The notes under the pieces: generated by a model
Told to the model about the DNA's origin: nothing
Seen by the model: the letters and a program-made list of their open reading frames with translations, nothing else
Database searches by the model: none
Made by a program: the position numbers and the translations under genes
Source: Amoebidium appalachense
Taxonomy: Eukaryota; Protista; Ichthyosporea
Length of the DNA: 64,000 nt
Reading direction: 5' to 3'
Assembly (NCBI GenBank): GCA_963693365.1
Contig: CAVNZM010000012.1
Location: 4,640,409 to 4,704,408, forward strand
Shown here: piece by piece, positions 159 through 64,000 of the stretch
Position numbering within the stretch: position 1 is the first letter of the stretch
How the letters are laid out: each line of letters begins with the position of its first letter

Positions 159-13253
<13,095 letters not shown>

Positions 13254-24754: not shown

Positions 24755-25196
24755 ACACACACATCACACACATTGCACCTATGGCCACCCCACTCTCTTC
24801 CCCCCGCGCTCGCCCGTTTCCTACGTTAACCCATCTGAACCGATGCTATGGGTTTCGGTTTGCCTGCACGTCTCCCCCCCCCCCCCCCCCCCCCCCCCTC
24901 CCCCCCCCCCCCCCCCCCTGCTGTCTCTCTCTCTTCTTTCCCCCCTGAATATGCCTCCTTTTTTTCCCCCATAATATCCATCCTTGTCCCCCCTTGCTCT
25001 CCCATTCCCCCCTTTTCCACCTGCGTTCTCGGAGGACATGCAGAAATCACGGGATAATCCAAAAGCCCAAATACTGCGACGTTCTCCACCTGTTCTTTCC
25101 AATTCTTTTTCCTTCAGGACGAAAGATCCAAGGGACTAAACGCTTACATCTTACGGTGGCGGGGTGGGCAGGCCTTTTTCTTTTTCTTTTTCTCTC

Positions 25197-27822: not shown

Positions 27823-47327
<19,505 letters not shown>

Positions 47328-48504: not shown

Positions 48505-57396
<8,892 letters not shown>

Positions 57397-58110
57397 CTTT
57401 ACGTCTTAGTTGCTGTAGGCACGCAATGATACCAGTAACACTGTTCTGGAAACAAGCACACGAAGGCAGGTCCCATTTTTGTACTTTTCGCGCGCTCGTT
57501 TCCGGAGGCATCACTGATCGGCCGGCGATACCGGGGTGTATAATAAAACAATCTACACCAATGAAAGCTCATTACAAAAACTAAAAAGAAAACAAGAAAG
57601 ATTGAAATTTTAAACAAAGATTCAGAAGCTTAAACTCATGCACTGTTGTTAGATGATGGGGTGGGAGACGAAACGGAATTTGAAAGGTTCGCGATCCTTT
57701 CAGGCATAGCCTGGCTGGTCCCCTCTCAGGACAAAAAGATGCGCAAACAATAAGACAGTTTAGTAAGCCAGAAATGAAAAGGATGGTAGTTGTAAAAAAC
57801 AAGTTTCGTGGGAATATGTTCTTCTTTTTAGGAAGCGAAGTTCATTTCAGTATGTACATTGTAGAGGGCGGCCCTATGATACCCCGGCGGCCGCTTTCAT
57901 GATCACGGCTTCAAGTTGAACTTTCCGGACAAAGACCTTCATGAACTTATATTGGGACAGCACTTACAAACCGATCTCTAAAATTTAAAAAACTTGTTAT
58001 TGCCCTTTAAACATACCTTTAACCAATTGAAAAGCGAAGCAGAATATACAATATCTCCGTATCCAATTCCTGCTAATGCCTACAAAAAGGCCCTTTGCAC
58101 GTGTGTCTCA
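57397..58110. promoter_or_regulatory. Probable bidirectional promoter between AHA1 and the snoRNA host gene
   Basis: About 700 bp of repeat-free spacer between the AHA1 ATG (minus) and the first exon of the host transcript (plus). Confidence 0.5.
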
Positions 58111-58287
58111 GCCACTTTTTCTTTTTCTTTGGTAAGTGAACTTGGTCGAGCCGAACTTGTGCGTCTGTGTTTTTCCGACCTCGTGTATCTTGTACTCCTT
58201 CTCCTTCCCTTGCAGTCATACCCACTTACTTACTCTATCCCTTTTGTTCTTTCCTTCAGTTTGTCTTTTCTTCCTTTCCTTTTAATA

Positions 58288-58374
58288 TCGGGTTGTTCTG
58301 ATGCCTAGCACTGGGAACTGATTATTATGATCGACACTCAAAGAAAAGCAGAAATTTCTTCTGAACGACCCCGA
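58288..58374 (+). ncRNA. Box C/D snoRNA, snR76/SNORD88-like (LSU rRNA Cm in CCCAGUGCU)
   Basis: Terminal stem TCGGGTTGT/ACGACCCCGA; C-like CTGATGC 58298-58304; guide AGCACTGGG 58307-58315; D' CTGA 58318-58321; C' ATGATCG; D CTGA 58361-58364, 75 nt before acceptor AG 58439. Guide is complementary to conserved LSU rRNA CCCAGUGCU. Confidence 0.85.
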
Positions 58375-58821
58375 GAACATGCATGCTTGATCTAGTTGTT
58401 GTCGAGCGTGCCCTAACCGCCTAATTGTCCTGTACACAGTTTTTGGGTCGAGGAACTCCCACCGACCCGGCGTTTGACTAGGCTCTGCACGTGTTCTGTG
58501 GTCCTTTCTTCCCCCCTTCCTCGTGCTCTTTCTCTCTTTCCCCACCTTCCCCGCGGAGGCCCCCTCCTCCTCCCTTGCCCTTCACTTCTCACTTCTTCCT
58601 TTGATGGTGCTTCTGGCACTTCATCACTTCCTCTCTTTAGCCCCTTCCCTTTTCGTTTCCTTTCCTTGTTTCCTTCTCTCTCCCCGTGTCCGTGGGCACG
58701 TGCAACAGCCTGACCACCTTGCTCCGTTATCTTCACCGTGTAAGGTAAGCAGCTGCTCCAGTCGTTTCACGGGCTCCAGTCACTTCACGTTACAGCATTG
58801 CGTTCTGCTCTTCTGTGTGTC

Positions 58822-58895
58822 GGTGCCGAGATGATAACAACACAATGGACTAGAGTTTCTGAATGCCTTTGTGATTATTTTGCTTACTGAGCACC
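58822..58895 (+). ncRNA. Box C/D snoRNA, snR78/SNORD52-like (LSU rRNA Um in GACUCUAG)
   Basis: Terminal stem GGTGC/GCACC; C ATGATAA 58831-58837; guide GACTAGAGTT 58848-58857; D' CTGA 58859-58862; C' GTGATTA; D CTGA 58887-58890, 72 nt before acceptor AG 58962. Confidence 0.85.
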
Positions 58896-59113
58896 TTGGT
58901 GGAGCAACTTGTTGTGCTTGCACACGTTGCCTTTTTCTAACTTTTTCCTATTGAACCTGCAGGTACTTCTATCCTGGTATCCGATTCGGTGAAGGGCAAC
59001 ACTTGATAGGTGAGCTTTCTGCCTGTGTATGTGCTTCTGTACCATGCCAGTAACGTATTTTTGGTTCCCTTTGCCATTTTGCTTGGTTCATAACCAGGTG
59101 CGGTGAAAGCCAT

Positions 59114-59183
59114 AGACTGAGTGATGGACACTTTTCAGCTTGGATGTCTATGAAGAGCTGCTAGATAGTATCTGACAAGGTCT
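59114..59183 (+). ncRNA. Box C/D snoRNA, snR65-like (LSU rRNA Um in UACUAUCUAGC)
   Basis: Stem AGACT/GGTCT; C GTGATGG 59121-59127; C' ATGAAGA 59150-59156; 11-nt guide GCTAGATAGTA 59160-59170; D CTGA 59172-59175, 76 nt before acceptor AG 59251. No clear D' box. Confidence 0.8.
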
Positions 59184-60144
59184 GCTTCAAGCTTGCTGTT
59201 GTCAAAAGTTTCGGTGAGCTATCCGGCTGACAAACGTTTCTCCCCTTGCAGGTTGAGGAAGCTGAGCTTGAAGCTGTCAACACCATCAGGCAGCAATATG
59301 AATAATAAAAATGAAGGAATTAGACAACTTTGCCGAGTGTTGTGGTGTCTTTTGTTCCCTCTTCAGTGTTCTTGGTATATGTTTGCATGCTGGGTATGAA
59401 CTGCGTAGTCAGGTGACTGTTTGTCGAGACAAATATGGAGTGTTTCGTCAAACATAATATATGCCAATAGTGTCAATAGCACAGAAGCATTCAATGCTCC
59501 GCTAAATGCTATCGGGTTTTTCGAAGTGCCTACTTTTACACGAACGTTCACAGAGTTAACCAAAGTGGCAATGGTGTGTTTTGGTTTGAGCTGCCACACT
59601 CGTCTCTGTGGAAAGTAAAGAAACCATGGTGTGAAGCACTTACAGGCCATGGCCGCGCAGAAAGTAAAGCTTGCACGCAATTACTTAAGACCTTACCTTA
59701 CCATAGTCACCGTACTGCTTCAAAACTAAGCTGGTGCCTTTTAGAGGTGGTTAGATTTTGTGATTCGTCGGTGCTACATAGCGTATAGGTTCACGGTTCT
59801 GAATTTCTAGTCACAACCCAACCTTACAACATAGCCATCATCCATCATAGATGAACAAGCCCTAGTTTTCTGAGTCATCCCAACGGCATACGGCAACGGG
59901 GGGGTTCATTGGAGTGCAGGTGCCATAGAAATTAATGCTCTGATTCATAGTAACCTAAAAGAACCACCCAAGCACACGGTACTCTCGTATACACATTGTC
60001 AGGAGCAGTTGCCTGAACACTGCCAGAACTTCAGTAGAATTAACACAAGTTGTAGGCCACCATGCATGTATAATGGGGAGGAATTCCTACTCCAAAGCAT
60101 AGTAAGATCTAGATAGTTGACGACCAGCACGGTCAGACGGGAGG

Positions 60145-64000
<3,856 letters not shown>

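What the first reader, a model, noticed from the sequence alone, without database searches (positions are those of the whole stretch)
58110..59330. Hidden non-coding host gene with three intronic C/D snoRNAs (snR76-, snR78-, snR65-like)
Seen in sequence: three C/D cassettes with terminal stems, one per intron, each D box 72-76 nt upstream of a branch-point/AG acceptor, separated by tiny exons with no ORF; the first exon is an oligopyrimidine run. Established knowledge: about 70-80 nt is the preferred position for splicing-dependent C/D snoRNP assembly, and GAS5/UHG-type hosts have 5'TOP starts. By the D+5 rule the guides hit the yeast 25S Cm2197, Um2421 and Um2347 equivalents (numbering from memory). 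Inference: a dedicated snoRNA carrier gene whose guides all target one ~230-nt stretch of LSU rRNA. snR76 and snR78 are also co-clustered in the fungal snR72-78 locus, so the linkage may be ancestral, here with an snR65-like partner.
Basis: partly seen in the sequence, partly recalled or inferred. Interest (0 to 1): 0.85.

Follow-up and report, generated by a model that had tools for sequence, protein, structure and literature searches.

The report
Three-snoRNA host gene in animal relative
A short, likely non-coding gene in a single-celled relative of animals carries three guide RNAs predicted to mark ribosomal RNA for methylation, likely one per intron (only the third intron was seen spliced), a layout already known from animals and fungi.

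Summary
Largely real, known kind. Three box C/D cassettes lie at 58288-58374, 58822-58895 and 59114-59183. Their guides pair (9, 10, 11 Watson-Crick bp) with other eukaryotes' LSU rRNA; the D+5 targets are 150 and 74 nt apart in 5 of 6 rRNA loci, matching yeast Cm2197, Um2347, Um2421 (snR76, snR65, snR78). No shuffle of 5000 gave two such hits. Rfam scores are below gathering; snR65 has no Rfam hit. D boxes end 75, 72, 76 nt before acceptors. One contig of a probable RNA run joins 59009 to 59252 (intron 3); introns 1-2 appear only unspliced. Exon 2 is not tiny (167-305 nt). The 5'TOP start is unmapped; the organism's own rRNA was not obtained. The neighbouring divergent AHA1 gene points to an ichthyosporean. 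Ancestral snR76-snR78 linkage is unsupported: order is reversed against fungi. The scan noted similar hosts before in fungal windows, not this trio or genome. My searches found no paper on ichthyosporean snoRNA hosts.

The parts
58081..58089 (+). TATA-like element about 34 nt before the candidate start (inferred)
   Evidence: sequence; function not tested
58115..58131 (+). candidate first exon: C plus 15 pyrimidines, then G and a GTAAGT donor at 58132 (5'TOP-like; start site unmapped)
58132..58439 (+). predicted intron 1 (308 nt); branch points CTAAC 58413-17 and CTAAT 58421-25; not seen spliced
   Evidence: retained in contigs
58288..58374 (+). snoRNA 1, snR76/SNORD88/snoR118-like: C box 58298-304, D' guide 58307-315, D' 58318-21, C' 58327-33, extra-pairing element 58348-55, D 58361-64; predicted target yeast 25S Cm2197 equivalent
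58440..58744 (+). predicted exon 2, 305 nt (167 nt if donor 58607 is used), 74% pyrimidine; holds the start of a 56-codon ORF at 58604 without homologues
58745..58962 (+). predicted intron 2 (218 nt); branch point CTAAC 58937-41; not seen spliced
   Evidence: retained in contigs
58822..58895 (+). snoRNA 2, snR78/SNORD52-like: C box 58828-34, D' guide 58847-56, D' 58859-62, C' 58871-77, D 58887-90; predicted target Um2421 equivalent
58963..59009 (+). exon 3, 47 nt; its 3' end is joined to exon 4 in a contig
59010..59251 (+). intron 3 (242 nt, GT..AG), seen both spliced and retained; branch point CTGAC 59227-31
   Evidence: table 5
59114..59183 (+). snoRNA 3, snR65-like by target only: C box 59121-27, C' 59150-56, D guide 59160-70, D 59172-75; predicted target Um2347 equivalent
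59252..59335 (+). last exon; AATAAA at 59304-09 and GT-rich tract from 59338 suggest a 3' end near 59330 (inferred)
48505..57396 (-). neighbour: AHA1 (Hsp90 ATPase activator), 13 exons, head-to-head, ATG 720 nt from the candidate start

Best explanation
This is a likely non-coding, spliced host gene whose three box C/D snoRNAs are predicted to guide 2'-O-methylation of large-subunit rRNA at the equivalents of yeast Cm2197, Um2421 and Um2347, each likely released from its own intron, with splicing seen directly only for intron 3. Mechanism: a polymerase II transcript starts near 58115 (inferred), head-to-head with AHA1. Core proteins would assemble on each C/D motif during splicing, helped by the 50-60 nt spacing to the branch point (spacing shown; mechanism from vertebrate work). 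Debranched introns would be trimmed to 70-85 nt RNAs (inferred). Fibrillarin would methylate the base paired to the fifth guide position (pairing shown against other eukaryotes' rRNA; methylation untested). snoRNA 1 has a second element that pairs just upstream of its target and would raise methylation efficiency, as shown for yeast snR76. The spliced exons are likely a by-product.
For: In the 64 kb, 8 CTGA boxes have 9 or more WC pairs to L003; the 3 on known sites are these; 8 of 5000 shuffles gave one such hit, 0 gave two. Rfam sub-threshold hits to the expected families. Guide, D' and AGAAA element invariant in 5 of 5 aligned snR76-type RNAs; extra pairing known for snR76 and HBII-180 (PMC3116282 passages). 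Acceptor spacing (about 50 nt to branch point optimal, PMC8162545 passage). GT..AG junction 59009-59252 in X1. Longest ATG ORF 56 aa spliced, 76 aa unspliced, no homologue.
Against: Introns 1 and 2 are retained in the only contigs that cover them (X1 58145-59011, X2 58291-58841); a 305-nt exon 2 spliced at a high rate should have split the X1 contig (inference). X1 is only guessed to be RNA and is one sample. All Rfam scores are below gathering; none for snR65. C boxes deviate from RTGATGA by 2, 1, 1 positions. Free folds are not more stable than shuffles (z -1.87, -1.57, +1.09). The rRNA tested is not the organism's own, and the loci were fetched with the guides' complements, so the pairing itself is by construction; only spacing and base identity are independent.
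Confidence: 0.72

Rival explanations
1. Same three snoRNAs, but not one per intron: snoRNA 1 and 2 sit in one long intron (58132-58962) or in a retained, polycistronic stretch and are separated by nucleases, as in plant and budding-yeast clusters; only snoRNA 3 has its own intron.
For: One unbroken contig 58145-59011 in X1 and 58291-58841 in X2, while intron 3 shows both forms. Predicted exon 2 is 74% pyrimidine, like the 5' part of intron 1 (73%) and unlike exons 3 and 4 (51%, 38%). Exon skipping in snoRNA hosts is described in Neurospora (PMC2780460 passage).
Against: Acceptor 58439 has two branch-point motifs and the same 75-nt D-box spacing as the proven intron 3 acceptor, against a 1% background. 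Donors 58132 and 58745 score 6.5 and 7.5, inside the 5.7-12.5 range of 12 AHA1 donors. A join from a 17-nt first exon would be a short tip that contig assembly drops (inference).
Confidence: 0.2
2. The host encodes a 56-residue peptide (ATG 58604, across exons 2-3) and the snoRNAs ride in a small protein-coding gene.
For: The ORF exists in the fully spliced model.
Against: No protein among 5.8 billion shares three 5-residue words with its 47-aa exon-2 part at lengths 25-83 (weak for a fast-evolving peptide). It lies in a pyrimidine-rich tract. ORFs of 159-267 bp occur in non-coding Neurospora hosts.
Confidence: 0.04
3. The cassettes are decayed copies or chance motifs and are not expressed as snoRNAs.
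For: Sub-threshold Rfam scores, imperfect C boxes; no small-RNA data seen.
Against: 0 of 5000 shuffles gave two known-site hits; boxes, stems, guides, extra element and acceptor spacing are all intact; intron 3 is spliced.
Confidence: 0.04

Closest known systems
Fungal snoRNA cluster I host (snR78-77-76-75-74-73-72), intronic form (PMC3596301 first two of six parts read; PMC2780460 passages and Background)
   Same: Non-coding host, C/D snoRNAs in introns before branch point and AG, only short ORFs, shares snR76- and snR78-type guides, both on D' boxes.
   Different: Three members, order 76-78-65 against 78-77-76; snR77, 75, 74, 73, 72 absent; snR65-type member is not in the fungal cluster; different lineage.
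Animal UHG/GAS5/SNHG 5'TOP hosts (PMC8162545 passages; details of GAS5 recalled)
   Same: Several intronic C/D snoRNAs, about 50 nt to the branch point, pyrimidine run at the likely 5' end, poly(A) signal.
   Different: No shared snoRNA set known to me; start site, TOP control and NMD turnover untested; organism is unicellular.
Rfam clan CL00071 (snR76 RF01209, SNORD88 RF00604, snoR118 RF01424)
   Same: Guide next to box C and before D', same target, AGAAA extra element 6-9 nt before box D.
   Different: 25.7 bits against gathering 46. Guide position 2 is A (C in the 4 others), so the rRNA G before the target pairs with a longer extra element (8 WC pairs) instead of the guide.
Rfam clan CL00063 (snR78 RF01176, SNORD52/U52, snoR37)
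   Same: D' guide, D' box and C' match the snR78 consensus; same target.
   Different: 29.2 bits against gathering 48; distal guide bases GG in place of AA, fitting rRNA with CC/CU after the site; no second (D) guide found on the LSU loci.
Yeast snR65 (25S Um2347)
   Same: Same target by D+5 on an 11-bp WC duplex.
   Different: No Rfam similarity at E up to 10; homology untested, only target equivalence.

Membership tests
Box C/D methylation guide snoRNA | Box C near 5' end and box D near 3' end, with terminal stem | tested here: met
   C boxes have 2, 1, 1 deviations
Box C/D methylation guide snoRNA | Antisense element of about 10 nt before D or D', D+5 on a known Nm site | tested here: met
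   9, 10, 11 WC bp on other eukaryotes' LSU; sites 2197, 2421, 2347. snoRNA 1 is one short of 10 but has the extra element
Box C/D methylation guide snoRNA | Pairing to the organism's own rRNA | not tested
   no genome held; own LSU not obtained
Box C/D methylation guide snoRNA | Stable small RNA bound by fibrillarin/Nop56/Nop58/Snu13; methylation at the site | not testable with these tools
   only contigs of three runs available
Rfam SNORD88/snR76 and snR78 families | Score at or above the gathering threshold | tested here: not met
   25.7 of 46 and 29.2 of 48 bits; filed as likely homologues that work like them, not as Rfam members
snR76/SNORD88 type | Extra pairing element next to the target, overlapping the guide duplex | tested here: met
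   58348-55, 9-bp duplex -11.1 kcal/mol on L003; AGAAA invariant; PMC3116282
snR65 family | Sequence similarity to the Rfam family | tested here: not met
   no hit at E up to 10
UHG/GAS5-type non-coding host | One snoRNA per spliced intron | tested here: inconclusive
   intron 3 joined; introns 1-2 only retained in contigs
UHG/GAS5-type non-coding host | No conserved protein product | tested here: met
   longest ORF 56 aa, no homologue; no ribosome data
UHG/GAS5-type non-coding host | Capped C followed by a pyrimidine run (5'TOP) and growth-dependent control | not testable with these tools
   motif present at 58115-30; contigs cannot show a start
Fungal cluster I | Members and order snR78-77-76-75-74-73-72 | tested here: not met
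   2 of 7 members, reversed order

The most novel reading that the evidence does not exclude
A GAS5/UHG-style 5'TOP non-coding snoRNA host already existed in unicellular Holozoa: it starts at C58115, shares a bidirectional promoter with the Hsp90 co-chaperone AHA1, and groups three guides because they act on one 224-nt stretch of LSU rRNA (1.2% of random yeast guide triples are that close), two of them a relic of a snR76-snR78 linkage older than the fungi-animal split.
Probability: 0.12. Interest if true: 0.62.

Novelty: new member of a known kind. Interest (0 to 1): 0.35.

Why it matters
It fills a gap between fungi and animals: non-coding intronic snoRNA hosts are described on both sides, and my searches listed no paper describing one in ichthyosporeans or choanoflagellates. 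It gives three predicted rRNA methylation sites and a compact locus for asking whether 5'TOP starts on snoRNA hosts predate animals and whether guides are clustered by target. It also shows the snR76 extra-pairing element in a further lineage, with a base handed from the guide to that element. None of this changes a mechanism.

Tried and rejected
No whole genome is held, so paralogues, own rRNA and LARP1 could not be sought; synteny in relatives was not tested. Run search gave 3 runs of one sample, none on record as RNA: no RNA holder listed. X1 and X2 have no cover at 57394-58144 and X3 none at all: a hole proves nothing. A control on the AHA1 first intron could not be run, so it stays open whether X1 contigs ever show joins from short first exons. 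Metagenome scan for snR76-type RNAs: 103 loci, 104 matches; most look like chance matches in bacterial genes; I judged 13 loci snoRNA-like by eye and checked those for the other guides (0 of 13; one GATAGTA match in L050 lacks the guide and D box); 13 loci, an overlapping set, went to Rfam, 10 with snoR118 or snR76 hits, none with snR78, snR65 or other cluster I members. Short flanks make this weak. A fourth snoRNA near the locus: none by Rfam at E up to 10 in 57500-60200 or by motif scan; SSU, 5.8S and snRNA targets were not tested. Second guides (snoRNA 1 D, snoRNA 2 D, snoRNA 3 D'): no target consistent across the six LSU loci except an 8-bp AU-rich match of snoRNA 1's D side to yeast 2219-2226 in 3 of 6 top-two lists, not a known site. 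A SNORD86-like switch in which snoRNA 1's 3' arm pairs with the start of exon 2: pair probability 0.01 or less, rejected. A 12-bp guide-like match at 24945: lies in a pyrimidine tract, no C/D Rfam hit, rejected. Free folding z-scores not significant. Search 'snR65' plus 'SNORD17' found 0 papers, so the human counterpart of snR65 is left unnamed. Supplementary figures of PMC3116282 with the snR76 pairing were not read.

Full report
Setting. The window is eukaryotic and rich in simple repeats. The gene left of the finding, on the minus strand, is AHA1 (Pfam Aha1_N, E 8e-20). One exon's best hits after the identical protein P0001 are an 'Ihof' protein (66%; read as Ichthyophonus from recall), a brittle star (59%), Sphaeroforma arctica (60%) and a 'CFRG' protein (56%; read as Creolimax from recall), so the organism is most likely an ichthyosporean; no tree was built. 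P0001 maps to 13 exons from ATG 57396 to 48505; its 12 introns gave local splice signals. The candidate host start lies 720 nt from the AHA1 ATG, head-to-head.

The cassettes. Rfam finds nothing at gathering level in 64 kb. At E up to 10 in 57500-60200 it gives SNORD88 at 58290-58371 (25.7 bits, E 0.011) and snR78 at 58824-58892 (29.2 bits, E 0.087), plus three weaker listed matches. The third cassette gets no snR65 hit even when scanned alone. With the interior held open, terminal stems form at -6.6, -4.9 and -7.4 kcal/mol; free folds are not better than shuffles, which is not unusual for C/D RNAs (own knowledge).

The targets. I searched genome contigs with the reverse complements of the three guides, leaving the gaps free (130-160, 50-80 nt). 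Six loci were returned of about 170 estimated; L003 was checked and is eukaryotic LSU rRNA (830 bits). The D+5 bases are C, U, U, spaced 150 and 74 nt in 5 of 6 loci and 164 and 74 in one. Yeast Cm2197 (snR76), Um2347 (snR65) and Um2421 (snR78) (PMC8307265, table read) differ by 150 and 74. With that offset, 10 of 10 yeast Nm positions in the stretch give the right base in L003. Across both strands of the window 8 CTGA boxes have 9 or more WC pairs to L003, and the 3 that land on one of those sites are these cassettes; in 5000 Markov shuffles of the region 8 had one such hit and none had two. Duplex energies are -17.8, -18.8, -17.4 kcal/mol. Caveats: the loci were selected by the guides, and none is the organism's own rRNA.

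snoRNA 1 has an element at 58348-55 that pairs with the rRNA just upstream of its target and overlaps the guide duplex by one base. Such extra pairing is reported for yeast snR76, where mutating it cut methylation 2-3 fold, and for human HBII-180 (PMC3116282, passages). Its AGAAA core is invariant in the window RNA, one plant snoR118 and three snR76-type loci. Here guide position 2 is A where the other four have C, and the extra element has C where they have T, so the same rRNA G is held by the extra element instead of the guide (read).

The host. D boxes end 75, 72, 76 nt before AG and 52/60, 50, 55 nt before a branch A; about 50 nt to the branch point is the reported optimum (PMC8162545, passage; the 70-80 nt figure is recalled). 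Background for this spacing is 3 of 297 other CTGAs (criteria post hoc). Run X1, guessed to be RNA, has one contig joining 59009 to 59252 with GT..AG ends (depth 137.5) beside a contig retaining the intron (33.5). The same run has one unbroken contig over 58145-59011, and X2 one over 58291-58841: introns 1 and 2 were not seen spliced. A join from a 17-nt first exon would probably be dropped in assembly, and a fully spliced RNA may be short-lived (inference), but a frequently spliced 305-nt exon 2 should have left a branch. Donor scoring finds only 58607 and 58745 after acceptor 58439, so exon 2 is not tiny. ORFs are at most 56 aa (spliced) or 76 aa (unspliced); no homologue. The pyrimidine run plus donor at 58115 is the only such pattern in the window (post hoc), but an acceptor-like CAG at 58111 allows an upstream exon.

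Linkage. Fungal cluster I is 78-77-76-75-74-73-72 and mostly intronic; its introns move and are lost (PMC3596301, parts 1-2 of 6). Another survey places its origin at the root of Ascomycota with members scattered before (PMC5824354, passages). Across eukaryotes snoRNA positions are not ancestral (PMC3511168, abstract and passages; PMC13736004, abstract). Here the order is 76-78-65. In metagenome loci plant snoR118 sits beside snoR66, and 0 of 13 snR76-like loci carried a snR78 or snR65 guide in the flanks held. Ancestral linkage is not excluded but has no support. Target clustering: 299 of 24028 random triples of yeast guides (1.2%) fall within 224 nt of one rRNA, 3.8% among LSU-only triples; suggestive for one locus noticed after the fact, and fungal clusters II and III are not clustered by target.

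Literature gap. Searches for snoRNA with ichthyosporea/host gene (1 paper listed, on RNAi, not read), with Capsaspora/Sphaeroforma/lncRNA (7 listed), with choanoflagellate (0) and with ichthyosporean terms (25 of 43 listed, none containing 'snoRNA') showed no description of such a host; the library lacks most subscription papers. LARP1 with its three domains is reported in choanoflagellates and filastereans (bioRxiv 10.64898/2026.04.18.719249, passage), so a TOP reader is plausible but untested here. PMC6171561 (passages) adds that snR65 and snR78 hybrids were hard to recover even in yeast.

Verdict. Real snoRNA trio in a likely non-coding spliced host; new member of a known kind in a little-studied lineage; interest 0.35.

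Noticed in passing
window 48505-57396 (-): AHA1 gene with 12 introns (241-1429 nt), head-to-head with the snoRNA host; Hsp90 machinery is used in C/D snoRNP assembly (recalled), so a shared promoter could be meaningful or chance.
   Followed up: partly
window 59710-60150: A 3248-nt X1 contig ends at 59710 and runs on beyond 60150; possibly the 3' end of a convergent minus-strand transcript. Gene not identified.
   Followed up: no
window 58960-58968: The intron 2 acceptor is followed at once by a donor-like GTACTT (score 5.6), a recursive-splicing-like site; the intron 3 junction shows exon 3 is kept at least often.
   Followed up: no
window 58445-58468: Stable 6-bp hairpin (pair probability 0.99) 5 nt after acceptor 58439; could affect use of that acceptor.
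   Followed up: partly
window 59098 and 59214: Two further donor-like sites inside intron 3 (scores 8.9 and 5.3); 59098 would shorten the intron and still leave snoRNA 3 inside.
   Followed up: no
window 24925-24948: 12-bp match to LSU before a CTGA; low-complexity, no C/D hit; chance.
   Followed up: yes
window 31810-32556 (+) and 3787-4002 (+): Frames holding short stretches that resemble a calpain catalytic domain and a von Willebrand D domain (resemblance recalled, not searched).
   Followed up: no
L001-L006: Eukaryotic LSU rRNA on contigs filed in bacterial MAGs (about 170 such stretches estimated): binning contamination.
   Followed up: partly
L011, L022, L026, L061, L072, L078: snoR118 lies 50-75 nt from snoR66 in all six plant-type loci.
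   Followed up: no
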